Origin: a virus
DNA: 64,000 nucleotides
Direction: 5' to 3' (one strand)
IMG/VR virus record: IMGVR_UViG_3300023174_000065
The stretch's first letter is position 1. Each line of letters starts with the position of its first letter. Below the pieces are notes generated by a model. It ran no database searches. It was given only the letters and a program-made list of their open reading frames with translations, and was not told the origin of the DNA. Positions 1-42,642 of the stretch are shown here, piece by piece. A program made the translations under genes and the position numbers.

Positions 1-3000
1 CGCACTGAACAGATATGACTGTATTGTTCCTGCACTGAAGAAAGTAAATTCTGGAGTATTTAAGTTATCCACTAAGCTATAATCAACTCCAAATATTGCC
101 GGAATTCCATTAATTGTAACATATGTACTTGATCCAGCACTGCCTATTGCATCAAATAGTACGGGAGGCGAATATTTGCCACCTGGCGCAGAAAAAGTCT
201 CAACATTATAATCTATTAAAGATATAGTTCCTGCATGAATCGATGTCAAGCTAAGAGCACCTAATCCAGGAGTTGTTGAAGTGAACCTAAAAGTATTATT
301 GGTAAAATCTATCACGTATTCATTTTTGTTCAATTTTCTATTATTAAACACTGCAATTACAGAATCAATATTAGTAGGTTTTAGACCTAGACTATAAGTG
401 GAAGTGGATCCGTTCACTGTATACAATTTATTAACGATGTTAGGTTGTACCAAAGGAGATTGTGTATAAAGACTGATACCAACTGATTCCATAATCTGAC
501 CAGGAACACACTCTTCCGGAGCAGGACTATTATAAGAATTTAAGAAACCATCGTCGATCATTCCTGTCATAAATCTAGTTGATGTTGAGCCACCATCTAA
601 TATTATTTCACTAGGAGTTAATCCTAGAGCGGTAGTGTATGCCATATTGCCGCCATTAATAACGGAGTCCAAGCTTCTTTCAATATCGTATATTTGCAAT
701 GTTCCATCACTATCAGAGTGCCTGAATTCAATTAGCGTACTCGTTGTCAGGAAAGCCGAAGAAGGAATGGTGATCACAGTCTGAGTGGTAGCCGAAACAG
801 TTGTTGTGAACTCAGATTTTATCACTGCTCTTGCGTATGCTTGTATCGTGGATGGTCCAGTGATTGTAACTACTGGAGTAGAAGTGTATCCTCTGCCGCT
901 ATTTTGTAATTCTATACCAGTAATTTGGCCTAACACATTCAGTATTGCAGTGGCGGTTGCAGCAGTTCCACTGATAGAATTAGGCGAAGATATTGTCACT
1001 GTTGTCAATGAAGATACATAACCTGAACCTGACACAGTGACTTCTATATTGTCAATTGCTCCTGATCCTATTCCAATAATCGTAGGAACTATTGCAGATC
1101 CCGTGCCGTCAATTCTAGTCTTATTTAGGTAAACATTAACTCTTGTTCCAGTACTGATTATAGTATCGGTAAGAACAAATGTCTGCGTACTCGTAGAATT
1201 TGTTGAATATGAAATATAACCAGATTCTAAAGAATAATTATCCCATGTCGTAGTCCCAAATGGCAACATATCCCAACCATTTGAAAAATCAAATGGCAAA
1301 GTTTCAATTGATAAACCATCATAGGCCACTCCCGACATCAACTGCTCGGGATCTTTTCCAGGCATACCAGCGGTTGGTTGATAATAGTATTCAATTCGAT
1401 CTACTGCTGTGTAAAACGACAGATTTTTTAAATAACTAATTCTAATTCTATCAAATTTATTAGGAATATACTGTAATTTAAGAACAGCATATGATTTTGT
1501 ATAGCTATTATTAAATTTTTCTTTTCGATATTCTATTGTATAACTATCATAAAGCTGTAAAGTATCGTTGACATATAGGTCTATATCTGCTTTGTTTAAA
1601 ATAGGTACCCATGTTAAATCAAATGAGACTTGGTTATCTATAGCAACAAACGAGTCGGTCCATGTTGATGTGCCAATTTCTCGTTGACCAGTCACTCTAT
1701 CAAACTTTAAGGCAACAGTGTTTGTTCTAACTGGACTTTTGCCTAGTCTAGCATACACCCTTGCAGGAGTTAGAGCACCATTTCCTCCTCCGTTGATAAC
1801 AACAGTAGGCGCAACAGTGTATCCATTTCCAGGATTTGTCACAATAATGTCGGTTATTTTTCCTAACGCAACATATGCAATTGCAGTTGCGCCATATCCA
1901 GTATCATTTGCGGCGGCTATTATTGAAATAGTTGGCACTGCATTATAACCAGATCCACCATCAAATACAGTTATTGACTCTATGCCATGAGTGTGATTTT
2001 CAAACCATGATTTCCAAGGATACTGTAATAGTTTCTTATTTCCAAAATCAACATTAGTAAAATTAGATGTTGAAGTATTGTAATACACTGGCAAATCAAA
2101 GTCAGTGGTGAAACTTTGAGTAAATTCCGTACTGGTATATGCCTCTACAAATTTTCTAATTTTTGTATGATATGGTTTAATTTCTTTTAAGAAATTTTCA
2201 TAATTTTTGCTATTTTGTAATTTGTAGGAATGACGCTGATCCAAACTACCCAAATTATTTATTACTGAAATAAACGTAGTTTTGAATGCCCAGTCTAAAT
2301 TTTTCTGCTCAGTCATTGCATATCGAACAGCTTTGAAGAAAAGCTGATTCCAATATATCTTTAAATTTCCTACGAATATATCATCTTTTAATGCTGTAAC
2401 GGCATAAAAAATTTCTTTAGAAGGTGATTGATCGAATTGAGTTTGGTCAAATCCAGCACGTTGATCCCATGCATACAATGATCCCGATAGGTTCCATAGT
2501 GGTTCAAGGAATTGTATAGTGCCATTTTGAGAGTACACAATATTCCAATTATCATCGAATGTGCCGCCAGTGCCAGCGGTTCTTTCAAGTATCAAATATC
2601 TTCCGTCACCGCCGTTTTCAACTTTAATATAACTGCCGATGTCCAACGACTCCCATGCATCAAGTGCAAATGTCGAGGATATTTTTGCAGATATTTCCAT
2701 TCGAGAATTATAATTAGGACTCATCCAATCTATATATTTCCAGTACTGAGTAGTGTCATATTCCTGTGTCCTGGACTTGTTCCAACGCTGTCTCTCAACA
2801 TCCCACTCATATACTGCCCACTTGCCATTAACCGTGGAATCAGTCTGCACCACTACAGTAAAGGGCCTAACTGTAATAGTTGCATAAGTGTATTGACTAC
2901 CAGGATTTATTATAGATACACGAACAACGCGACCAGATTCATCTATTCCATCCTTTTCAGGAACAATGATCTCTGCTCCCGTTCCGTCACCTGTAATCAC

Positions 3001-6000
3001 AAGCGTCGGTGATACTCTATAATCTGATCCAGGATCAACAATTACAACTGATGAAATTTTACCATTTAAATCAATTATTGGCCTAATATCTGCTGATTTT
3101 ATACTCTTGACATTTACAAGCTCAAGTGCGTAAATGTCTTCAACTAGTAAATCATAGGATGCCGCTGCTGGAATATGATCTTTTGATTCCAGATTCCCAA
3201 AGTTAATTTTATCGGTAATCAATAAAGATGCCAATATTGTATTACTGAATTCCATGATATTACGCATTGCTTCTAGTGGATATTTGAAGAGACTCTGCTG
3301 TGGTCTAATTCCCAGTCCATATCTAACCTTTTCTGGCAAGTTAGGAAACGGTACTGCATTTCCTATTTCATCATGCCCTATTAAGCTATCTATCAATTTT
3401 TTTTCTAATAATGCGTTTGGCTTACTATTAGGATCATTTTCTTGCAATAATAGCCATTCAGTGTGCCTATTTGCAGAATTTCTGGTATAATCAAATGTAA
3501 TATTAAGATTAACATTATTTGACACAAGAGCAGGCTTGATATTTGATATCATGGCCGATGTTGGACCTAGAATTGCTATTGATTTAATCCCTGAACCAAC
3601 AGGATCAGCTATTTGTGATGCAACACTAAATGCAGTAAGTTTCCTATTATGAACGTTGTCAGGAAGAATATTTTTGTTCTTTACCCAGTAATAGTATACA
3701 TTACTAAACGAGTTTGAAACTGAATTATATACCTGTTTTACCGACATTACTGTATTTGTGGCAAATTTTGGCTGGCCGCTTATTCCTCGTGCCAATCCAT
3801 CCGCAGTGTCTGCAAAAGTGCTCCACTCTATTGGCAAGAATTCCGATTTTACCCACTCATAAACGTCAATTGTACATCCAGGAAATAAACGATTCCAATT
3901 GTTTTTTCTATATTCCAACTCACCCTGTTCGTACCATACAAATTTTACATTAGAAAGATCCCACCACAATTCACCCACATGCTCATCAAGCCAGTTAGAA
4001 TTTGTATCAACATTTGTACTATCAATGCCAATACTGTAGATTGCAGGATCATAAGGTGTGATAAATTTTAATTCCTGCTTTGCTGTTGCCAAAATATCAC
4101 CCTTAACTGGATCAATAATGTCAAGGTAATCTTTGACTTGTTGTGTTTTTGAATCAATAGTTGATGCTTTTTTAACTAGTGTTAGATCGACCAGTGGTGA
4201 ATTTTGTCTGAGAAGTTTCCATGCATTTACAGACACTTCTTTTCGATCATAGATGTAGACCTGACCTCGGCCTTGATTGTATGAACTCAACAGTGACGGT
4301 GCACCAACACAAATAGTCTTTGAAGTAACTGATAAACCTGATCCAAATGAGCTTCCCAAATTGACTGAGGATGAAGGCAATTCTTGTGCGTAAGTCCAAA
4401 ATTCTCCATACTTGTAGTAAACATGAACTGTTCCAACATCATAAACTACATCATAAAAGGTGGTCGTTCCTGTATCAAAATCTGTAGTTGAATTCCTAAC
4501 GGGACTTGTAGGATCATTCACATAAATTGTACCATATAATGAGTTTGCAATGGTACTTCCTAGTCTTGTTGAGTTTCTATCATAAGTTGTTGTACCAGAA
4601 TATATACTATTCTTGGTCGAAATCACTAACTCAGTCTCAGTTTCATCCAATGCAATATCATACCCAAATTCCAATTTACCAAATTCAAATGGCGAATCCA
4701 GGCGCTGATTGAATGAATAATTGGTACCTGTCCACATGAAAATATCGACTACACCTGTATTGTTTCCTCTAGCAGAATCATTATAATTTTGTGTACCAAT
4801 AAACAAAAACTTTCCATCTTTTGTTAGTTTTATCGTTGATCCAAAATTATCAGATGCTCCAAAAGTAACTGGAAGTTCAGAGCTATCTCCTGATATTATT
4901 TTCAACTGCTCAAGTACATTGGTTGTAGAATTTTCACGATATACAAATACTGCACCGGTTGATCCCAATGTATTATTAATTCCTGGAGCAGTTACGGCAA
5001 CAATACTATTATTCCAATTTGCCGCAATATTTGTACCAAAGTTACTTCCTGTAGAAATAGAAGGCGAAGTTCTACTAGAATATGTCACATTGACCGAAGT
5101 TGTTACACCAACGGTATAACGATAAATTGCACCTATGCCATTAGCATATCCAGGAGAGCCAACAATTAATTTTGATGTCTGAGTTGAATACGCCAATGAT
5201 TTTCCAAATCGAGTATTGTTTTCAGGATTAGGAGTTGTTATAACGGTCGCAGTCGTCTCTGTTCGTCCATTTTCATTAATTATGGATAGTTTTACAACTC
5301 CCTGGTTGACAAATTGATTAGAAATACCCGATGCAGGATTAACTACTGTATTTGTCAAGGTTGATTTCACACTTGATGCACCGGATGCTCCTGCAATAAC
5401 CAATGATATTCCTGAATCAAACGCAACTGCTTCTCCAAAGAAACTAGTTTCAGTTCCATCATAGTATGTAATATTATCTTTATTAATAGAATAGCTAAAA
5501 TTAAATCGAGGATTACTATCGGCATTTCTAGTTAGAACGGAAATACGGCCAGTGTAACCGTAGATGGTCTCTTTGTATGTAGGAGATGATACGATGATAG
5601 TGGTAGTATTGACATTCTGAACAATTTTATAACCATACTGTTGACTGGTAATATCAGGCGCTGGAGCAGATATAACACTGGTAACTGTTGTAAAATTATC
5701 AATTTTTTGATATACTGCCCAATTACCGTCGCCCTTATCATCAATCCACATTAGTTCGCCGATGCGTCGGTCAGTATCATATGATAAACTGTTAGTAGCT
5801 GACCAGTTTAAATCTGACATTCTAGAGCTTTTAAATGTGTGTAATAATCCTCCTAGAAAATCAGGCAATACTGGCAATTCAAAAAGTACAGAGAATACTG
5901 TAAATTCTGTTGGACTGATAATTCGTGCAACTACATAACACCGATCAACATCAACTGCAATGCCTGTTATACTAACAATATCATTTGTATTGAGTAAATG

Positions 6001-9000
6001 TGGTCTACTGGTAACAAAAGCAGTTTCCTGACCAGAAATATAGATTTCAGCAGCAATAATCTTAGTAGCAACTTTGGTATATCGTAATACATCCCAATCT
6101 CTACTCTCAGTGTAACCTAGCCAAATAGCCGTTCCATCAGTGAGTGCTGCATTATTTGAAATATCTAAAATACTATTTTTATTAAAAGCAGTCAATGATA
6201 TATCATCAAATCTAGGATATCCCGCAACAGGTATTTCAAAATCTGTGTACACAGTGGATGTAGTCAGAGTTGGGAACGCCTGTTCAATATCAAAATTATC
6301 AGGCGAAATAATCACATCATTAATATCTTTGTAATAAATGGAGTCAGCAACATCAGTTGGTATTGTATTGACAAAGCCAATAATCTGTGGATTTTCAATA
6401 AATTTTGTAGGATCTAGAGGTGTTTCCAGTTCTTGATAAGTATTGAATCCACCATAATATCCAATGCGAAATGCCCACTCCTCGTTGAAATCTATACTTC
6501 CACTATCATTGATTAGTGTAGATTTGCTCAACTTAATCAAAGGATTTTTTGTACCCTTTTCACGAATATATCCCTGATAGAACTTATATTCCGCAACTGA
6601 ATTGCCAATAATATTGTTAAGATAAGGTCGTGGCAAGTAACCAACCAAATGCTGTGCCATGCGCTGTTGACCTGCATCAAAATTATCAATATCAAGACTA
6701 TAAAAATCTTCAAATTGATTAATCTTATAATCAAAGTTTGGATATAAAGTTGATTCCGGTTTACTACTCAAAAGGGTCCAACTAGTTAGATCAAAGGACT
6801 GACTGCCTTGTACTGACTTTGTGGCAGAATAATAATTGCCAGAAAACCGTACAACCTGACCAATTTCATAACTAGTAAATTTTTCCCAATCAACTATCGT
6901 TGCTCTATCAAATATAAATCCTGGACTAAAAAAGTCTCCATTCCAATTTTTAGTTCTGAATCCCTGAAGTTTTACCCTACGCTGACGATAACCTGTTTCA
7001 ATATCATATATAACATCATTAAACAGACTATAATTGTTAAAAATTAATGCATGTTCTTTTTGAACAAGATTTAATTTGGCAAAATATATACCATCCGTGG
7101 CATTGACCGTTGATATTGTGAAGTTTCCATCCGATCGAATCAACGTAAATCTATTTTGTAGGAATGGTGATCCATCTGCTCTAAGCAAACTATACTCATA
7201 AAATTTATTGAGTATGTTATCAACTATTCCAGTATTTGAATAAAAGTTCAGTTTATTTGCAAACGGACTCAGAGTTATAACTGAATTAGTTGTCCAATTC
7301 TGAGTTGTCCAAAATAAAAATTCTTTAGCACTAAGCGTCCAATCAGAAATTTCACCTAAATCATTTACAAAGTCATCAAATATAAATCCTTTAGATACAA
7401 GCCAGCGCCCATAACCGATAATAAAATCATACACTTCTTGTATAGTTTCAAAGGTGGTACCATAGGGAACATTCTTTGCAGTATCTGAAAATAACGAGCG
7501 AGTAGACACACTTATTCCACCGATCATTGGCAAATAAGGAAGACTTTGATAATAAGACATCACGAAGTCTACACCACTATTGTGCTTCTGTTTTGACCGA
7601 TAGTACCTGTCCATATAAAATACAATCTGACCAAGATCATATATAGAATTTGCCTGCCAATTTACAAAATTTTCGGATCTACCTCCAGAAACTTCAAGTC
7701 GGTCAGTTGCAACTGGTACTGGCTCAAATACTGTAAAGAATGGTTCATATTTGTCATAACCTCTAACAGAGAATCCCGTGAGAGTCTTTTGTACTATTAT
7801 TCCAGAAATTCCCAAAGTCTGTATAGGTGAACTTTGATTAAAAAATATCTGATAGTCTTCAGATGGCAATAATACTCCAGGATATGGACTCGTAGGATCT
7901 ATAGAGTCAATTGAGATTTGAAGTTTGTCTTTGCTTACAAATCCGCCTAATTTTACCATCAAATTATACGTAACGTTAGACAAATCATTTTTTAAGGAGG
8001 TAAGATATTTTGCATCATTCATTAGTCCACGTTCAATTACAAAAACACTATAACCAGAAGCAAGTACTCTAGTGCCGTTAACAACATCACGATATAGAGA
8101 AACCTTTGACAAGTTTAAAAACTGATGACTTTTTCCATACTTATATTGATTAAACTTATTTGCTATCAACCTATCAGGATCAAACATAAAAGCTGCATAA
8201 TCGGCCGGCTTAGTAAGCGCTGCAACAATTTGATAGATAAATGGCCAATAACTACTCTTTCTCCATGAGGTTTCGGCCGGACCTTGGTCTCCCACTATCC
8301 AATCACTGTCAATATTAATGCTTCTGATATTAATAATTCTTTTAGGATCACCAGGATTAATTATAGCAGTTGTGACCAGTCCAGTATCTGTTGGACTTAA
8401 TAAATTACCACTATCATCAACTGGAATAAAATTAGACAATCCTGGTCTTGAATACAAAGAATGTGTTCCTGCGCGATCACCACTTGCAATCTTGCCAGAT
8501 TCCAAGTCATTCCAAAGAATTGTATTTCCACGAGTATAAGGAGAAGGTCCATACTCGGTATTCCACCATTCAGGTTTTTCAGTAAATCCTAGCATTTCCC
8601 ATGGATGAGTATGAGGACGATCAGTGTCATAGAAAAATTTATATATTGCTCGCCAGTGTCCTGGCATTCTACGCTTGTGTATTCCATCAATCATTCCAGA
8701 ATAATTAAATGTAAACGTATCCAACTGATCAAATGTATTATTAGTTTGATAATCTACCCCAAAATTACCTGCCCACTTTAATATATCGGGAGTAATAATA
8801 TCGGTAATCTCATTTATTGAATAGTCAGTTGTTCTAAATGCACCTGGAATAATTGAGTTTATGTCGATCAAATGTCTCTTATAATCTGTTTTTATATTAT
8901 TATAAACACGAATTTCAAATTCTAATAAAACATCATCTCTATAGTCACCAAATGCAAGAGTGATACTACCATCATGACCCTGAATAACCAAACGAGGATC

Positions 9001-11988
9001 ACCTACATATGTGTCATCATAGAATTTTGCTGGAGTATATTTAGGATAAAGACCCAATTTTGTAGGTGTAGGAGGAACAAAATTACCTACAGTACTGGAA
9101 TAGTCAGAAACTAAAATAATATCACCGGATGAAAGAGGAACTTTAATCGTAAAACTTGCAGAAAATCTATCAATAATATAATCTCTGCCACTGATCAATA
9201 ACACATCATTCAAATATATCAAAATTGATCTTTCGCTCAGGACTGTATTATCAAAAATACTCTCCAAACTATAAATTTTGTTTCTTGAATCAGTGACTGT
9301 ATATGATCTATCACTATGATTTTTGCCATAAGCAATCATATCTGAAAAATTATACGAAACTGAATTGTCTTTTACCAGATTTAGTGAGGATATTGCCAAA
9401 TCTAGAATATCCCTGGGAAATAAATCGTAGGAATTTCTCAAATCAGTAATACTTCTAAGGAGATTGGATTTAAATTGGTTATAATCTTGTGCAACCTGTC
9501 TTACAGAATCAATTATACTGTGTTGTTTTGTTCCTAAAAAGTAATGAGCAAAACTCATGGGATTGGAATGACTTACTAATTTAGATCCATATTTTCCAAC
9601 ATTTGATAAATCTCGCAAGTTTCCATTTCCTGGAAAAACTCCAATAAATTCAGGACTATTATAGGCAATTGTTCTGACGTGGTCACTTAGTTCCGCATAT
9701 GTAAAATTGCCGATAGGTCCATTTAATGGATTGTCGGTTAAATTACTAGGTATTTCATAATAACCATGATCATTAGAAGGTTTTTCAGTAAACAGTTTTA
9801 TTAAAACTCTATCGTTCACTGAAAATGAATTTTCTACTACAACATATGCTCTCTCTGAATCCCTTGCTATTCTAAAATCAATATAACGACGCTTTTTGAC
9901 ATCATTTACATATAGATCAATCTCAAGATCAGGTGTATAACCAGGCTCGTCAATTGCAATAATTTGAACGTATATGATTTCTGAATCAATCACTTGATAT
10001 TGAATAATTGGAATATGTAGTTCGGACTGCTCTGTCCACACATCTAAAAATGATTCTGTACCATCGGCATATGTTATCTTTAGATAATTGCCAGCAACCA
10101 TTCGATCTTCGATCTGATTATTGACCGATAATGCAAACGTATCCGTCATAAAATCATTATTGAACAGATAGTCGCCTTGATTTGCTATATTTTTATATTT
10201 TAATGGAAAATTTAAAATGGCGTCTTTTGAATTATTGGTATCCACTGCGTAACTAAACACATTTGTTCCACGAAATGTGGAATTATATACGGTCTGGTCA
10301 GAAAAACTAATTCCATCATCGTCAAAAACATCAAACTTAGGAAATTGATTTAACGCAAGACGCTGTTGAGAATATGTCCATTCATTGCCGTTAAACCACC
10401 AATTTGTTCCCTTATATGTTTCGCCACGAAGAACTACCAATGAAGAATTGTACTCAGATACAGTATCCAGAGTTTCTACCAAGTCTACTACTTGTTTTCC
10501 GTTTACCGTAACAAAGTTAACTTCAAAAATCTTACCACGAGTTAAAGGATCTTTGTCTGCATTAAAAATTACTCTAAAACCAGGTTCAACCATTACTTGA
10601 TCAATATAAAATCCAGGACTATTTGCAAATGCCGAAAGAGCATCAACTGTAATCGTATCAATAAGATCAACTGTTTGTTTAGTAGTTGCACCAAAATTAT
10701 AAAGTCTTAATCCAGAAACAAATTCAATAATAGGACGCCTTGCTTGTTGAAGAGAAGAATATTCTGGTTGAACTCCGTTAGCAAGAGCAGTGGATTTAAT
10801 CACGTCAATATGAACCCAACGATTATATCGACTCCATGAATTTCTATCGGGACTTGCTCGATTGATTGTAATATATTCAGGCAAAAGAGGAACATAACTA
10901 AAATCATCAAATGGATATTGATCAAATGGAGTAGCATCAAAGTTAACATTCAAATTAGTAGTAGATATTCCAACAGTCTTTAGTTCGTTATAAGGAACAA
11001 GAGTGATATATGTACCAACTCCCTCTACTATGAAATCATTTTCTGCATATTCTTCAGGCATAACATTGCCAGCAAATCTAACTTTCATGCCATTTGAGAA
11101 TTCTACGCCGCCGATAGACGAATAAGTCTTTTTGCCTATAATATCAGCAGAAACATCTAAGATTGAATTTTCTATTGCGCGCTTTACTACAATTTGTCCA
11201 ACGCCGTAGAGATTTCCTTCTGGAAAATAAAATAAATTATCAGGAGTAGTGTCATCAATTGTTAAAATAAGTCTACCTTGTTTAACACCCTGATTGGTAG
11301 CTCCTCTATATAGACCAACTTCTCCAGGAACATATCCGGTTTTTATATAAAATGGATAGTCACTGTTAACATCAAATACATAGGTAGATCCTCTATATAA
11401 AGTTAACAAAGGAGATGTTGATAGACCATCTGGAGTAAAAATCAAACTTTTACCATCAACTGAATCAGTTACTGCGTAGGAACTAATAGTCGATGCTTGC
11501 TGACCTGCAATTTCAATAGTGTCTGGACCATTTGGTAACCAGTAGTATTGTCCGTAATTAATAAATTTATCCCAATCTATACACGGATCATATGAGAACG
11601 ATTTTGGCCTAAATAGTCTATCTAGGTTAGATACCTTGGATCCATTAAATTTCAATTCATTAATTAAATCATCATATGTAGATGAATATGTTATATTCAA
11701 ATTTGGATCTTTTATAACAAGAGACGGCTCTAATTGATAGCTATTTCTTAATGTGCCATTAGAATCGAGGTATATATCTTTTGCAGGATCATAATTTAAA
11801 CTGAGCTTGCTTCCAACAAATCCATCGAGTCGTTCTAACTGTGGCTCTTGAATAAATTGATCAAGTGTACTCGCTAAAAATTTTGCATTTTTATCTGTTT
11901 TATGATATCCCGGCAACAGATCAACAGTCCTACGTACATTTGAAGGATTGTTTATATCCACTGGATTAATAAATTCTTTATTGGCCAT
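1..11988 (-). CDS. Giant baseplate wedge / virion structural protein (gp7-like position), partial, at least 3996 aa, continues beyond the left edge
   Basis: ATG at 11988 directly after the gp6 stop (MANKEFINPVDINNPSNVRRTVDLLPGYHKTDKNAKFLASTLDQF...). The frame is still open at position 1 (...TPEFTFFSAGTIQSYLFSA). Its absence from the ORF track is consistent with no in-window stop. Contains FG-GAP-like, CBM5/12-like and GxGY-repeat motifs. The position after gp6 suggests gp7. Confidence 0.85.
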   Translation of the reverse strand, partial: MANKEFINPVDINNPSNVRRTVDLLPGYHKTDKNAKFLASTLDQFIQEPQLERLDGFVGSKLSLNYDPAKDIYLDSNGTLRNSYQLEPSLVIKDPNLNITYSSTYDDLINELKFNGSKVSNLDRLFRPKSFSYDPCIDWDKFINYGQYYWLPNGPDTIEIAGQQASTISSYAVTDSVDGKSLIFTPDGLSTSPLLTLYRGSTYVFDVNSDYPFYIKTGYVPGEVGLYRGATNQGVKQGRLILTIDDTTPDNLFYFPEGNLYGVGQIVVKRAIENSILDVSADIIGKKTYSSIGGVEFSNGMKVRFAGNVMPEEYAENDFIVEGVGTYITLVPYNELKTVGISTTNLNVNFDATPFDQYPFDDFSYVPLLPEYITINRASPDRNSWSRYNRWVHIDVIKSTALANGVQPEYSSLQQARRPIIEFVSGLRLYNFGATTKQTVDLIDTITVDALSAFANSPGFYIDQVMVEPGFRVIFNADKDPLTRGKIFEVNFVTVNGKQVVDLVETLDTVSEYNSSLVVLRGETYKGTNWWFNGNEWTYSQQRLALNQFPKFDVFDDDGISFSDQTVYNSTFRGTNVFSYAVDTNNSKDAILNFPLKYKNIANQGDYLFNNDFMTDTFALSVNNQIEDRMVAGNYLKITYADGTESFLDVWTEQSELHIPIIQYQVIDSEIIYVQIIAIDEPGYTPDLEIDLYVNDVKKRRYIDFRIARDSERAYVVVENSFSVNDRVLIKLFTEKPSNDHGYYEIPSNLTDNPLNGPIGNFTYAELSDHVRTIAYNSPEFIGVFPGNGNLRDLSNVGKYGSKLVSHSNPMSFAHYFLGTKQHSIIDSVRQVAQDYNQFKSNLLRSITDLRNSYDLFPRDILDLAISSLNLVKDNSVSYNFSDMIAYGKNHSDRSYTVTDSRNKIYSLESIFDNTVLSERSILIYLNDVLLISGRDYIIDRFSASFTIKVPLSSGDIILVSDYSSTVGNFVPPTPTKLGLYPKYTPAKFYDDTYVGDPRLVIQGHDGSITLAFGDYRDDVLLEFEIRVYNNIKTDYKRHLIDINSIIPGAFRTTDYSINEITDIITPDILKWAGNFGVDYQTNNTFDQLDTFTFNYSGMIDGIHKRRMPGHWRAIYKFFYDTDRPHTHPWEMLGFTEKPEWWNTEYGPSPYTRGNTILWNDLESGKIASGDRAGTHSLYSRPGLSNFIPVDDSGNLLSPTDTGLVTTAIINPGDPKRIINIRSINIDSDWIVGDQGPAETSWRKSSYWPFIYQIVAALTKPADYAAFMFDPDRLIANKFNQYKYGKSHQFLNLSKVSLYRDVVNGTRVLASGYSVFVIERGLMNDAKYLTSLKNDLSNVTYNLMVKLGGFVSKDKLQISIDSIDPTSPYPGVLLPSEDYQIFFNQSSPIQTLGISGIIVQKTLTGFSVRGYDKYEPFFTVFEPVPVATDRLEVSGGRSENFVNWQANSIYDLGQIVFYMDRYYRSKQKHNSGVDFVMSYYQSLPYLPMIGGISVSTRSLFSDTAKNVPYGTTFETIQEVYDFIIGYGRWLVSKGFIFDDFVNDLGEISDWTLSAKEFLFWTTQNWTTNSVITLSPFANKLNFYSNTGIVDNILNKFYEYSLLRADGSPFLQNRFTLIRSDGNFTISTVNATDGIYFAKLNLVQKEHALIFNNYSLFNDVIYDIETGYRQRRVKLQGFRTKNWNGDFFSPGFIFDRATIVDWEKFTSYEIGQVVRFSGNYYSATKSVQGSQSFDLTSWTLLSSKPESTLYPNFDYKINQFEDFYSLDIDNFDAGQQRMAQHLVGYLPRPYLNNIIGNSVAEYKFYQGYIREKGTKNPLIKLSKSTLINDSGSIDFNEEWAFRIGYYGGFNTYQELETPLDPTKFIENPQIIGFVNTIPTDVADSIYYKDINDVIISPDNFDIEQAFPTLTTSTVYTDFEIPVAGYPRFDDISLTAFNKNSILDISNNAALTDGTAIWLGYTESRDWDVLRYTKVATKIIAAEIYISGQETAFVTSRPHLLNTNDIVSITGIAVDVDRCYVVARIISPTEFTVFSVLFELPVLPDFLGGLLHTFKSSRMSDLNWSATNSLSYDTDRRIGELMWIDDKGDGNWAVYQKIDNFTTVTSVISAPAPDITSQQYGYKIVQNVNTTTIIVSSPTYKETIYGYTGRISVLTRNADSNPRFNFSYSINKDNITYYDGTETSFFGEAVAFDSGISLVIAGASGASSVKSTLTNTVVNPASGISNQFVNQGVVKLSIINENGRTETTATVITTPNPENNTRFGKSLAYSTQTSKLIVGSPGYANGIGAIYRYTVGVTTSVNVTYSSRTSPSISTGSNFGTNIAANWNNSIVAVTAPGINNTLGSTGAVFVYRENSTTNVLEQLKIISGDSSELPVTFGASDNFGSTIKLTKDGKFLFIGTQNYNDSARGNNTGVVDIFMWTGTNYSFNQRLDSPFEFGKLEFGYDIALDETETELVISTKNSIYSGTTTYDRNSTRLGSTIANSLYGTIYVNDPTSPVRNSTTDFDTGTTTFYDVVYDVGTVHVYYKYGEFWTYAQELPSSSVNLGSSFGSGLSVTSKTICVGAPSLLSSYNQGRGQVYIYDRKEVSVNAWKLLRQNSPLVDLTLVKKASTIDSKTQQVKDYLDIIDPVKGDILATAKQELKFITPYDPAIYSIGIDSTNVDTNSNWLDEHVGELWWDLSNVKFVWYEQGELEYRKNNWNRLFPGCTIDVYEWVKSEFLPIEWSTFADTADGLARGISGQPKFATNTVMSVKQVYNSVSNSFSNVYYYWVKNKNILPDNVHNRKLTAFSVASQIADPVGSGIKSIAILGPTSAMISNIKPALVSNNVNLNITFDYTRNSANRHTEWLLLQENDPNSKPNALLEKKLIDSLIGHDEIGNAVPFPNLPEKVRYGLGIRPQQSLFKYPLEAMRNIMEFSNTILASLLITDKINFGNLESKDHIPAAASYDLLVEDIYALELVNVKSIKSADIRPIIDLNGKISSVVIVDPGSDYRVSPTLVITGDGTGAEIIVPEKDGIDESGRVVRVSIINPGSQYTYATITVRPFTVVVQTDSTVNGKWAVYEWDVERQRWNKSRTQEYDTTQYWKYIDWMSPNYNSRMEISAKISSTFALDAWESLDIGSYIKVENGGDGRYLILERTAGTGGTFDDNWNIVYSQNGTIQFLEPLWNLSGSLYAWDQRAGFDQTQFDQSPSKEIFYAVTALKDDIFVGNLKIYWNQLFFKAVRYAMTEQKNLDWAFKTTFISVINNLGSLDQRHSYKLQNSKNYENFLKEIKPYHTKIRKFVEAYTSTEFTQSFTTDFDLPVYYNTSTSNFTNVDFGNKKLLQYPWKSWFENHTHGIESITVFDGGSGYNAVPTISIIAAANDTGYGATAIAYVALGKITDIIVTNPGNGYTVAPTVVINGGGNGALTPARVYARLGKSPVRTNTVALKFDRVTGQREIGTSTWTDSFVAIDNQVSFDLTWVPILNKADIDLYVNDTLQLYDSYTIEYRKEKFNNSYTKSYAVLKLQYIPNKFDRIRISYLKNLSFYTAVDRIEYYYQPTAGMPGKDPEQLMSGVAYDGLSIETLPFDFSNGWDMLPFGTTTWDNYSLESGYISYSTNSTSTQTFVLTDTIISTGTRVNVYLNKTRIDGTGSAIVPTIIGIGSGAIDNIEVTVSGSGYVSSLTTVTISSPNSISGTAATATAILNVLGQITGIELQNSGRGYTSTPVVTITGPSTIQAYARAVIKSEFTTTVSATTQTVITIPSSAFLTTSTLIEFRHSDSDGTLQIYDIERSLDSVINGGNMAYTTALGLTPSEIILDGGSTSTRFMTGMIDDGFLNSYNSPAPEECVPGQIMESVGISLYTQSPLVQPNIVNKLYTVNGSTSTYSLGLKPTNIDSVIAVFNNRKLNKNEYVIDFTNNTFRFTSTTPGLGALSLTSIHAGTISLIDYNVETFSAPGGKYSPPVLFDAIGSAGSSTYVTINGIPAIFGVDYSLVDNLNTPEFTFFSAGTIQSYLFSA

Positions 11989-27300: not shown

Positions 27301-27732
27301 GTGAATTGGTACTATAAAGATAATATAGTATCTGAAATACCAGAGGACGTGATTGGATTTGTATATCTTATCACAAACACGTCCTCCGGACGCATGTACA
27401 TTGGAAAAAAGCTGTTTCACTTTAGTAAAACCACATATAAAATGGTAAAACTAAAAAATGGCACAAAAAAACGTAAAAGAATTCGAGGCAAAGTCGAAAG
27501 TGATTGGCAAGATTATTATGGATCAAGTGACAATTTAAAAGTTGACATTGACTTATTAGGTAAAGATAAATTCAAACGAGAGATTCTATACTACTGCAAG
27601 AGTAAATCGGAATGCAGCTACATTGAAGCAAAAGAACAATTTTCTCGCAAGGTATTAGAATCCGATGATTATTATAATGGACATGTACAAGTTAGAGTAC
27701 ATAAAAAACATATAAATGGTAAAATTAGTTAA
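27301..27732 (+). CDS. GIY-YIG endonuclease (endonuclease II / DenA-like)
   Basis: GFVYLITNTSSGRMYIGKK...ESDWQDYYGSS...FKREILYYC...YIEAKEQF...YYN. Confidence 0.85.
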   Translation: MNWYYKDNIVSEIPEDVIGFVYLITNTSSGRMYIGKKLFHFSKTTYKMVKLKNGTKKRKRIRGKVESDWQDYYGSSDNLKVDIDLLGKDKFKREILYYCKSKSECSYIEAKEQFSRKVLESDDYYNGHVQVRVHKKHINGKIS

Positions 27733-27737
27733 TTTTC

Positions 27738-27766
27738 TTGACTTTTATACTCATATAAATTATAAT
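27738..27766 (+). promoter_or_regulatory. Sigma70-type promoter upstream of the 27775 ORF and the structured non-coding element
   Basis: TTGACT-N17-TATAAT. Confidence 0.75.
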
Positions 27767-27774
27767 TACACATT

Positions 27775-28017
27775 ATGGCAAAATTAAAATGGAACCGCAT
27801 TGCAGAAAAATCGCTAATACGCAGACATGGTCATAAAATAGTACAATCTGAATATACGCAAAAAGTTCAAAAAAACAAAAATTATATAAATCTAGGCATT
27901 CACGAAAAACACAACTGGCAACCACTCAAAGGACCGTTTGGTCCACACTCAGGCAAAATAATTTGTAAGACATGTAATGATAAATGGATTACATGGCTTC
28001 CTAAAGGCTCCATCTAA
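27775..28017 (+). CDS. Hypothetical small basic protein with possible H/H/CxxC metal site
   Basis: 80-aa ORF (IHEKH...GPHSGKIICKTCNDKWITWL) directly after a promoter. Confidence 0.7.
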   Translation: MAKLKWNRIAEKSLIRRHGHKIVQSEYTQKVQKNKNYINLGIHEKHNWQPLKGPFGPHSGKIICKTCNDKWITWLPKGSI

Positions 28018-28079
28018 GGCACATCTCGCAAGTAATCGATAATACGGATTGCATTGCAATAGGCACAACAAATCGTAAC

Positions 28080-28450
28080 ACATAAGGGTGTCGGCCCAGT
28101 TCTAAACCGATGTGGAAAAGGTGGTGAGAAAATAGCCACACACGCAACATGTTGAGACATTCCCACGCTAGTCAGAGGGTCTAAGTATTAACATAGAATG
28201 TTTGTTACCATTCGAAAACACTAATGCTCCTAAACACCTTGGAAACTAGGAACGAGTCCAAGGATACTACATTTATGTAGTAGGTCGCGGTAGGCAGGGA
28301 AAAGCGCAGAGTCCCTGGAGCGGGTGTATAAACAAAGTACCTACTTCCATGTCTCGGTTGATACAACTCGTATGAAACCCTGACAGACGGAACCTTTAGG
28401 GGGTTCCGTCTGGTATCCTCAATCTGTATGAATATCCTTTCCCCTTATAG
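28080..28450 (+). ncRNA. Putative large structured non-coding RNA (family unassigned)
   Basis: ORF-free, GC-elevated region with terminal pairing ATAAGGG/CCCTTAT, long-range TGAGACAT/ATGTCTCG, at least five hairpins and crossing helices. Strand is inferred from the upstream promoter and G-U wobble orientation. Confidence 0.6.
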
Positions 28451-28504
28451 TTCTAATAACATTACTATGGTGATTACTCTTCCTGTTAAATCTATAATAT
28501 AAAA

Positions 28505-28550
28505 ATTGCTTCGAGCGATAGCGAAGAAGCAAGTGAGCTTTAGCTCGCTT
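28505..28550. other. Tandem hairpins (terminator or ssDNA signal) at the end of the structured element
   Basis: TTGCTTC-gagcgatagcgaa-GAAGCAA followed by GTGAGC-ttta-GCTCGC-tttt. Confidence 0.45.
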
Positions 28551-28591
28551 TTATAATAAATAAAATTAAATTAATAGGAATAAAACTTGCC

Positions 28592-41635: not shown

Positions 41636-41663
41636 CTAAATAGATTGTCAGGTCTTAAAAAGT

Positions 41664-41712
41664 ATTATGCAGAAACCCGCTGCGTATGTCATAGAATGAC
41701 ACATCAAGGAGA
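41664..41712 (+). promoter_or_regulatory. Structured 5' leader (two hairpins) ahead of the SD of 41719
   Basis: TATGCAG-aaacccg-CTGCGTA followed by TGTCAT-aga-ATGACA, then AAGGAG; CTAAATA late-type promoter at 41636-42. Confidence 0.5.
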
Positions 41713-41718
41713 AAACAA

Positions 41719-42642
41719 ATGGGACGTCCAATTAATAGTAAGTTTTTCGGTAACTTAAACCGACCATATAATAATTTTGCCACTGGTGGTCTTACTGGTG
41801 TTGGCGGAGAAAGCATTGCAACTGTATCAGTTTCAAACAGTGGTACGCTATACTCACAAGGTGCTGTTGTAACAATCTCTGCTCCAAATATCACTGGTGG
41901 TATTCGTGCAACAGTTTCCACGACTGCTAATGCCGCTGGCAATGTTGCTGTTACTATTGCTAATTCTGGTACTGGTTATACTGCAACTAGTACATTATCA
42001 ATCTCAACTGCATCTGCTGTTACAAAAGTTACAACTGGTACATCTGCTACTACTGTAATTTATCCTGCTACTACAAGTGGTATCTATGTTGGTATGAAGG
42101 TAATTGGTACAGGTATTAGTGCAAGTGCTACCTATGTAACTTCATTCACTGGTGCAGCAGTTAACTTAACTTGGCCAAATGCTACCGCAATTTCGACATC
42201 TGTTAACTTCGTTGATGTTGGTACTGGATTTGCAGGAATTGTTTCTGCTCTTACTACTACTACTCAAAATGCACTTAGAATTACTACATATCTAACAACC
42301 GGAAGTTCCGCGGTTACTGGCGGCGATATCCTTAAGCAGGATTCAAGCCGTAAATATTTGGTACAGAATTCACAGGGTCGAGGCGTAGTTAAACTAAGCG
42401 CAGGAACTGGAACAAATCATGTGCTAGAACCAGGCGGAATGCATTTGATTGCAACTGACTTTGGTGGTTCAACTTATTATGTTCTTAAGCTAACTGCTCG
42501 TCGTGTAACTTTAACAGATCGTTCGGGTACTAGTACTGCATTAGTAACTCTAACAACTGGCACAGACGGTGTAAAAACTGGATCTGCTAAATGGACTCTT
42601 GGTGCAGCAACAGGCACTATTGTCACTCTTTCTAACGCTTAA
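41719..42642 (+). CDS. Thr/Gly-rich virion structural protein (possible head decoration or fibre)
   Basis: MGRPINSKFFG start, Thr-rich beta motifs, codon bias like gp23, own late promoter and terminator. Confidence 0.75.
   Translation: MGRPINSKFFGNLNRPYNNFATGGLTGVGGESIATVSVSNSGTLYSQGAVVTISAPNITGGIRATVSTTANAAGNVAVTIANSGTGYTATSTLSISTASAVTKVTTGTSATTVIYPATTSGIYVGMKVIGTGISASATYVTSFTGAAVNLTWPNATAISTSVNFVDVGTGFAGIVSALTTTTQNALRITTYLTTGSSAVTGGDILKQDSSRKYLVQNSQGRGVVKLSAGTGTNHVLEPGGMHLIATDFGGSTYYVLKLTARRVTLTDRSGTSTALVTLTTGTDGVKTGSAKWTLGAATGTIVTLSNA

What the first reader, a model, noticed from the sequence alone, without database searches (positions are those of the whole stretch)
28080..28450. ~370-nt multi-domain, pseudoknotted non-coding element after the recombination/nuclease block
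Seen: the 574-nt gap 28018-28591 is the only long ORF-free stretch in a densely coding genome and is more GC-rich than its flanks. Pairings read by eye: terminal helix ATAAGGG(28082-88)/CCCTTAT(28442-48); TCGG/CCGA; GTGGT/GCCAC; long-range TTGAGACAT(28152-60)/ATGTCTCGG(28349-57); CCTTGGA(28237-43)/TCCAAGG(28257-63); TACTACA-ttta-TGTAGTA; CAGGGA/TCCCTG; and a perfect 11-bp CAGACGGAACC/GGTTCCGTCTG. GCTCC(28226-30)/GGAGC(28317-21) crosses GTAGG(28290-94)/CCTAC(28340-44), which would make a pseudoknot. A near-consensus sigma70 promoter (27738-66) reads toward it. I could not match it to tmRNA, RNase P, a tRNA or a group I/II intron. Inference: a large phage ncRNA of unassigned class, either a ribozyme/scaffold of the GOLLD/ROOL kind or an R-loop-forming replication primer RNA.
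Basis: partly seen in the sequence, partly recalled or inferred. Interest (0 to 1): 0.85.

Follow-up and report, generated by a model that had tools for sequence, protein, structure and literature searches.

The report
Knotted twin-box phage RNA, probable origin
The gene-free gap encodes a real, about 370-base, multiply knotted RNA that is in no RNA catalogue and is shared by hundreds of aquatic phages; its evolution suggests it pairs back onto its own DNA to start genome copying, which is inferred and not shown.

Summary
Real. Window 28061-28433 (+) has no Rfam match but about 185 homologous loci. A 67-pair model with five crossing helices is 97% paired with 35 compensatory pairs.

The boxes change often yet stay identical: 146/149 RNAs, 35 joint changes against 1 single. 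No complementary partner exists in the RNA. Nearby mismatches are mostly G/A or U/C, so the first copy can pair with the complement of the second.

Sister phages carry, at this locus and never together with it, an RNA built on Rfam Polynucleobacter-1 that ends in the same module. Four complete 30-kb phages carry the RNA without reverse transcriptase, helicase or polymerase.

Best reading (0.45): an RNA that anchors onto its own template DNA to seed an R-loop replication primer, like ColE1 RNA II or T4 oriF. No transcript or replication data; GC skew gives no support. This scan found the family before on other DNA (for example e1-5648312).

The parts
27301..27732 (+). Stand-alone GIY-YIG nuclease gene (SegE_GIY-YIG PF19835, phrog_447). 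Usual neighbour, not an obligate partner.
   Evidence: Pfam E 3e-34. Within 6 kb of the RNA in 93 loci, mostly directly upstream. Replaced by a RusA-like resolvase in some, absent from complete G042 and G043, present without the RNA in L029/L038.
27738..27766 (+). Sigma70-type promoter; probably drives the small ORF and the RNA
   Evidence: 11/12 match. A similar promoter lies directly before the 5' AGGCA motif of a type-B copy in G045. Function inferred.
27775..28017 (+). Optional 80-aa ORF with a CxxC motif
   Evidence: No Pfam or PHROG hit; in only 14 RNA loci.
28061..28213 (+). 5' domain of the type-A RNA: AGGCA start motif, pseudoknot 28075-80/28203-08, hairpin 28089-112 with loop pseudoknot 28086-88/28095-97, helices 28113-14/28141-42, 28121-24/28136-39, 28149-55/28188-94, 28196-200/28209-13
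   Evidence: Covariation. Swapped for a different 5' domain in one subtype.
28227..28348 (+). Knotted core: 28227-30/28317-20, 28237-41/28259-63 with a conserved purine loop, variable hairpin 28267-80, 28287-89/28305-07, 28290-94/28340-44, 28298-300/28312-14, probable 28249-52/28345-48; possible base triple 28235 with 28300-28312
   Evidence: Helix 28249-52/28345-48 is nearly invariant, so it is not proven by covariation.
28351..28376 (+). Module 1: upstream box (28351-60), linker, invariant CTC, box A = GTATGAA (28370-76); unpaired in the consensus fold
   Evidence: Identity covariation with module 2; unpaired in RNAalifold.
28384..28412 (+). Hairpin between the two modules; box-to-box spacing 49-67 nt across the family, 56 here
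28408..28432 (+). Module 2: upstream box (28408-15), linker, invariant ATCT, box A' = GTATGAA (28426-32); proposed DNA target on the template strand
28433..28501 (+). AT-rich stretch (GC 0.28), candidate unwinding element
   Evidence: Family mean GC falls from 0.43-0.47 to 0.28-0.33 for about 160 nt after A'. This could also be ordinary intergenic or terminator DNA.
28507..28548 (+). Separate two-hairpin motif, mostly with C-G-closed GNA/GNNA loops (ssDNA-like), conserved behind both RNA types
   Evidence: HMM hits in 80 of 160 syntenic loci. Also scores as a minus-strand terminator.
28556..28562 (+). T4-type late promoter motif for the next gene
   Evidence: Conserved in the alignment; sequence.

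Best explanation
The element is a cis-acting RNA gene that works at its own DNA, most likely as a replication-origin primer. SHOWN: a conserved, multiply pseudoknotted + strand fold; two single-stranded bipartite modules around a hairpin that must stay identical within each element; no complementary partner in the RNA; wobble polarity favouring module 1 paired to the complement of module 2. INFERRED: host RNA polymerase transcribes the element, and the knotted body presents module 1. Module 1 invades the template DNA strand at module 2 behind the polymerase, through two short helices about one turn apart. This stops the duplex reclosing, so the transcript stays hybridised into the AT-rich stretch as a persistent R-loop. 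Its 3' end, possibly trimmed by an RNase H, primes DNA synthesis, and the displaced strand with its small hairpins loads the helicase and primase. Small phages without replication genes would use the same element to recruit host or helper-phage machinery.
For: (1) Boxes are identical in 146/149 type-A RNAs, read from alignment columns without requiring identity; 12 sequence variants; one true 1-nt exception. 35 joint changes against 1 single on the tree, 29 against 0 in type B. (2) No third covarying column and no 7-nt complement within 700 nt. (3) Two copies in one genome carry different boxes, each self-identical (G044, G045), so the constraint is internal to each element. (4) Polarity: first mismatch after the box is G/A 87 and U/C 11 against A/G 1 and C/U 0. 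On the tree CC goes to TC 15 times and never to CT; TT goes to TC 31 times and to CT 3 times. Module 1 pairs better with the complement of module 2 than the reverse in 152 of 162 sequences. (5) 132 of 160 syntenic loci carry type A or type B and none carries both; most of the rest are cut short or hold other types. (6) Four complete 30-kb phages carry it and lack helicase, polymerase B, late sigma and any recognisable initiator. (7) AT-rich DNA follows. (8) Precedent: PMC5043065, PMC3016281.
Against: Four-fold-site GC skew does not switch at the element, and the RNA-sense strand is C-rich, the opposite of a displaced strand in simple rightward replication; codon bias confounds this. A 7-bp AU-rich hybrid is weak, unlike the G-rich ColE1 anchor. 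The window's own RNA is one of the 9 exceptions to the polarity energy test (-17.4 against -19.5, RNA parameters as a proxy). Three box-position exceptions go the other way or are neutral (L123, L008 clade, L053). T4 oriF needs no specific RNA sequence or fold. No PF00075 RNase H in these phages. The polarity counts include positions that may also pair within the RNA, and the sequences are related.
Confidence: 0.45

Rival explanations
1. Two-fold symmetric scaffold: the folded-back twin modules bind two copies of one partner (a homodimeric protein or a trans RNA), or build an RNA-only multimer as GOLLD and ROOL do.
For: Direct repeats on a folded-back strand give two-fold symmetry. Both modules are unpaired. 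Linkers of the two modules are often complementary. Size and ornateness resemble GOLLD/ROOL (abstract of 10.1101/2024.12.08.627333).
Against: Two copies in one genome have different boxes, each self-identical; one tolerant protein would not enforce that. No non-structural gene is shared by all carriers. It does not explain the G/A and U/C polarity.
Confidence: 0.17
2. Self-targeting catalytic RNA: module 1 binds its own DNA as in the best explanation, but the knotted core nicks the DNA or joins to it (like EBS1/EBS2 of group II introns), starting strand-displacement replication or mobility without an initiator protein.
For: Same pairing evidence. Bipartite short helices and invariant residues (CTC, ATCT, purine loop) suit a docked substrate. 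The C-rich RNA-sense strand fits displacement of the other strand. Found in unrelated jumbo and 30-kb phages.
Against: No group I or II intron model matches. At least four different bodies sit on the same module, which is odd for one catalytic core. The fixed locus argues against selfish mobility.
Confidence: 0.13
3. A-B-A' template for a telomerase/DRT2/DRT10-like polymerase (host-encoded or unrecognised) that makes tandem 50-65 nt hairpin repeats, or a decoy for such a host enzyme.
For: The pattern is formally the A-B-A' of DRT10 (PMC12632851). The commonest box starts with ACA, like the DRT2 flanks (PMC12039810). Identity starts sharply and decays 3'. Pseudoknotted body of similar size.
Against: No RVT_1 in 61 records, including four complete small phages and two near-complete jumbo phages. 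No Drt2 HMM hit and no convincing YxDD motif. No concatemer junction in metagenome or viral contigs (a weak negative). Unit length is not a multiple of 3. Wobble polarity is opposite to cDNA realignment, and identity extends to a second box outside any template.
Confidence: 0.1
4. Guide or scaffold RNA for the adjacent GIY-YIG nuclease (OMEGA-like ribonucleoprotein).
For: The RNA starts at or near the nuclease stop codon in most loci. The pair also occurs together in 30-kb phages. The protein is a bare catalytic domain with a basic insertion.
Against: The nuclease is replaced by a RusA-like resolvase in some loci; G043 has endonuclease VII instead. RNA without nuclease (G042, G043; second copies have none adjacent) and nuclease without RNA (L029, L038) both occur. 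Genomes do not avoid their own box sequence.
Confidence: 0.09

Closest known systems
Polynucleobacter-1 RNA motif (Rfam RF01718; Weinberg et al. 2010, PMC2864571)
   Same: Same locus behind the same small nuclease family. Full-length Polynucleobacter-1 RNAs (type B here, 114 loci) end in the same ACTC-box...hairpin...ATCT-box module, which is visible in the flanks of the authors' own alignment.
   Different: The window's RNA does not match the 141-nt model, and its 5' and core domains are unrelated in sequence (no locus hits both HMMs). The model covers only the first third and omits the twin boxes. Module homology between types is statistically weak: 34 on-target against 3 off-target hits, 3 with E<0.01. 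No function is known.
ColE1 RNA II preprimer (PMC5043065)
   Same: Long folded ncRNA made by host polymerase that would form a persistent hybrid at its own locus with no initiator protein. From memory (Masukata and Tomizawa 1990, not checked here), an upstream G tract of RNA II pairs with a C tract of the template strand near the origin, which is the same geometry.
   Different: No sequence likeness. The anchor is a variable bipartite AU-rich box about 56 nt upstream, not a G tract about 245 nt upstream. Multiple pseudoknots. No antisense RNA I equivalent found. Phage, not plasmid.
T4 oriF/oriG R-loop origins (PMC3016281)
   Same: T4-like phage; promoter, transcript and AT-rich downstream element; more than one copy in some genomes.
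   Different: T4 origins are about 100 bp and sequence-independent, with no conserved RNA fold or repeat.
DRT10 / DRT2 / telomerase template RNAs (PMC12632851, PMC12039810)
   Same: Pseudoknotted ncRNA with an A-B-A' direct repeat whose copies must match.
   Different: No reverse transcriptase nearby or in complete genomes; wobble polarity reversed; a second identical box.
GOLLD and ROOL large ornate RNAs
   Same: Large, heavily covarying, phage-borne RNAs of unknown function.
   Different: No Rfam match; smaller; twin identity-covarying boxes; not beside tRNA genes.

Membership tests
Polynucleobacter-1 (RF01718) | Match to the 141-nt covariance model at or above 37 bits | tested here: not met
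   No hit in the window or in 8 other type-A loci; type-B loci score 79-114 bits.
Polynucleobacter-1 (RF01718) | Lies downstream of the GOS11034 / PSSM2_218-like gene | tested here: inconclusive
   The RNA follows a phrog_447 GIY-YIG gene, as type B does; identity of that gene with GOS11034 was not checked.
Extended twin-box family (full-length Polynucleobacter-1 and relatives; not formally defined) | 3' module with identical boxes around a hairpin | tested here: met
   GTATGAA at 28370-76 and 28426-32.
ColE1-type RNA primer origin | Host-polymerase transcript of several hundred nt with a required fold | tested here: inconclusive
   Fold shown by covariation; promoter only by consensus; no transcript data.
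ColE1-type RNA primer origin | Upstream RNA segment able to pair with the template strand near the origin | tested here: met
   Met at sequence level only: identity covariation and wobble polarity.
ColE1-type RNA primer origin | Persistent R-loop, RNase H processing, priming of DNA synthesis | not testable with these tools
   Needs biochemistry.
ColE1-type RNA primer origin | No element-encoded initiator protein | tested here: met
   Four complete 30-kb genomes; unrecognised initiators among hypothetical ORFs are not excluded.
ColE1-type RNA primer origin | Strand-skew signature of an origin | tested here: inconclusive
   No switch at the element; sign opposite to the simple model; confounded by codon bias.
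DRT2/DRT10/telomerase RNA | A-B-A' repeat with matching copies | tested here: met
DRT2/DRT10/telomerase RNA | Cognate reverse transcriptase gene | tested here: not met
DRT2/DRT10/telomerase RNA | Tandem-repeat cDNA product | tested here: inconclusive
   No junction in assemblies; raw reads were not available.
GOLLD / ROOL | Match to the Rfam model | tested here: not met
tmRNA, RNase P RNA, tRNA, group I/II intron | Match to Rfam or ARAGORN models | tested here: not met
OMEGA-type nuclease-guide RNA | Obligate co-occurrence of nuclease and RNA | tested here: not met

The most novel reading that the evidence does not exclude
A self-targeting catalytic RNA origin: the folded RNA finds its own DNA through a programmable bipartite box and itself opens, nicks or primes it. 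It would replace an initiator protein in jumbo phages and in 30-kb satellite-like phages that borrow the helper's replisome and late sigma factor.
Probability: 0.13. Interest if true: 0.95.

Novelty: new variant of a known kind. Interest (0 to 1): 0.74.

Why it matters
The RNA class is real, large and uncatalogued, and it occupies a fixed locus in an abundant group of aquatic jumbo phages. Covariation by identity instead of complementarity is rare and points to pairing with the opposite strand. If the reading holds, it gives a function to an Rfam orphan from 2010 (Polynucleobacter-1) and identifies how this phage group starts replication. It would also speak to two questions the reviews leave open: what triggers persistent hybrid formation in ColE1 (PMC5043065) and what rules govern T4 origin R-loops (PMC3016281). 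The box-swap test is cheap, and a 7-nt programmable anchor could be a tool. It also suggests a class of 30-kb phages that depend on jumbo helpers.

Tried and rejected
Single-sequence folding: not significant. BLASTN against GenBank phages: nothing. Pattern scan of GTDB genomes: pattern too loose; only two real hits, both in MAG contigs, probably phage DNA. RNase P and group I readings from look-alike motifs: rejected, because those segments pair locally by covariation. Gene-60-type ribosomal hopping: rejected, because many boxes have no stop codon and the landing copy repeats the stop. Box C/D K-turn: rejected, because the required G varies. DNA iterons: spacing of 49-67 nt is not helically phased. 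My first inference that one subtype lacks the nuclease was an ORF-calling artefact. Reverse transcriptase searches: negative. Concatemer junction scans: negative. Box avoidance in genomes: none. GC skew: inconclusive. Whole-record module pattern: uninformative. No assembly is held for this window. No R-scape or Infernal model was built; my G-test null is home-made.

Full report
Setting. The window comes from an uncultured T4-like jumbo phage. Its gp46 is closest to PA5oct/Paride (49%), Phosso and Atu_ph07. The gene order is gp55 sigma, gp47, gp46, Hc1-like, GIY-YIG, 80-aa ORF, the gap, then a 133-aa ORF and two gp26-like hub genes. The gap 28018-28591 is the only ORF-free stretch over 250 nt. 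It has no Rfam, tRNA or tmRNA match, and folded alone it is not better than shuffles (z -1.45).

The structure is real. Syntenic and pattern searches of IMG/VR gave about 185 loci with this RNA, some redundant (type A). Mean pairwise identity is 69% among 85 non-redundant sequences. A G-test with a tree-based null put Watson-Crick pairs at the top of the list. On a 50-sequence alignment my 67-pair model is 97.4% paired, 35 pairs change on both sides, and none of 500 shuffles reaches this; slid controls fall to 31-42%. RNAalifold recovers most of the nested part independently. Five helices cross others: 28075-80/28203-08, 28086-88/28095-97, 28287-89/28305-07 and the core set around 28227-30/28317-20, 28249-52/28345-48 and 28290-94/28340-44. 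G-U pairs outnumber A-C pairs 647 to 38, so the + strand is the folding strand. The terminal helix and the long-range helix 28152/28357 do not.

The twin boxes. Several top covarying column pairs were identical, not complementary. They define box A (28370-76) and box A' (28426-32), GTATGAA in this phage. Read from alignment columns with no identity filter, the boxes match in 146 of 149 type-A RNAs, in 12 sequence variants. Two of the three exceptions are misaligned longer repeats and one is a 1-nt mismatch. On a tree built from the RNA body, both copies change on the same branch 35 times and one copy alone once (that set was pre-filtered for 6 matches, which one search shows to be harmless). 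A second, shorter box about 12-18 nt upstream also matches between the two modules. No column covaries as a complement, and no 7-nt complement lies within 700 nt.

A family of bodies on one module. Syntenic phages that lack type A carry a different body of about 400 nt at the same place, ending in the same module (type B, 114 loci). No locus has both. The first third of type B is Rfam Polynucleobacter-1, an orphan motif from PMC2864571. The flank of the Polynucleobacter chromosomal copy in that paper's alignment also shows the module with matching boxes. Further bodies occur in L098, L141 and L453/L478. Statistical homology of the module between types is weak but directional. The window's RNA is therefore not a member of RF01718 but a sister class that shares its locus and 3' end.

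The constraint acts in cis. Near-complete genomes G044 (353 kb) and G045 (328 kb) each hold two type-B copies about 140 kb apart. The boxes differ between the copies and match within each copy. A single trans-acting protein would not require that. Genomes do not avoid their own box sequence.

Polarity. Where the modules differ, module 1 tends to have G where module 2 has A, and U where it has C. These are the differences that G-T and U-G wobbles absorb when module 1 pairs with the complement of module 2. On the tree, TC arises from CC 15 times and from TT 31 times; CT arises 0 and 3 times. Both routes lead to the same state, so a mutation bias in one copy does not explain it. Duplex energies favour this direction in 152 of 162 sequences, though not in the window's own RNA. 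Telomerase-type realignment needs the opposite direction (PMC12632851).

Which complement? A cDNA needs a reverse transcriptase. None was found in 61 records, including four complete 30-kb siphovirus-like genomes with type A and the two near-complete jumbo genomes. No concatemer junction appears in assemblies. That leaves the template DNA strand at module 2 as the simplest partner (inference).

Why an origin. The element is near-universal at its locus and is followed by AT-rich DNA and a conserved pair of ssDNA-type hairpins. It is present in small phages that lack helicase, polymerase, late sigma and any recognisable initiator. More distant marine relatives without the RNA carry initiator-like ORFs (DUF1376 or HTH), but this is a single clade contrast. 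ColE1 RNA II and T4 oriF/oriG prime replication from persistent hybrids. The anchoring of RNA II by an upstream tract on the template strand is from my memory and was not checked.

Against. GC skew does not switch at the element and has the wrong sign for simple rightward displacement. The hybrid would be short and AU-rich. T4 origins need no such fold. An R-loop at this site could also serve termination, recombination or nicking. I put pairing of module 1 with its own DNA at about 0.6, and the primer-origin function at 0.45.

The nuclease neighbour is probably a junction-resolving enzyme and not the RNA's effector (inference). It is swapped for a RusA-like resolvase in some loci, G043 has endonuclease VII instead, and each partner occurs without the other.

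Prior notice. I found no paper that describes type A or the twin boxes; the supplementary motif tables of PMC10690425 were not searched. This scan has reported the family many times on other DNA, and one note reached the same origin reading. I reached mine before those look-ups, and they are not independent support.

Verdict. Real feature; new RNA class on a shared, unexplained module; works most likely like an RNA-primer origin; not a member of any Rfam family. Interest 0.74.

Noticed in passing
G040-G043 (L441-L448), complete 29-31 kb phages: They have a full virion module and TAAATA (gp55-type) motifs before structural operons, but no late sigma, helicase or polymerase. They may be satellites of the jumbo phages.
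   Followed up: partly
window 28507-28548: Two-hairpin motif with C-G-closed GNA/GNNA loops on the top strand, conserved behind both RNA types. Many homologs also have a GAA-loop hairpin on the bottom strand right after box A'.
   Followed up: partly
window 41653-41721 (+): Rfam freshwater-2 RNA, 51.3 bits, directly before the ORF at 41719.
   Followed up: no
L438:10101-10165 (PA5oct, NC_071039.1 about 76,760-76,825): 8-nt repeat with one G/A difference, 57 nt apart around a -20 kcal hairpin, in the syntenic gap. Possible remote module in a cultured phage; similar hits occur about three times per kb in the Phosso gap, so only a lead.
   Followed up: partly
L439:9401-10416 (Sinorhizobium phage Phosso): 1-kb non-coding gap at the syntenic site, between a Holliday junction resolvase and an RNase HI gene.
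   Followed up: partly
G044:105082-105463 and G045:160207-160638: Second type-B copies sit at a conserved second site, upstream of a phosphoesterase-like gene, with no nuclease adjacent.
   Followed up: partly
L453:2960-3420, L478:2430-2880, L098, L141-L144, L466:960-1400: Further RNA bodies at the equivalent site (types C, D and one unassigned), showing that 5' and middle domains are swapped as modules.
   Followed up: partly
window 27301-27732: PHROG labels this GIY-YIG family (phrog_447) 'NAD synthetase', which looks like a mis-annotation.
   Followed up: no
window 1-11988 (-): One open frame of at least 3996 aa runs off the window start; probably a very large virion protein.
   Followed up: no
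L248, upstream of and within the RNA: Short tandem repeats before the RNA's 5' end and a duplicated insert in the variable hairpin.
   Followed up: no
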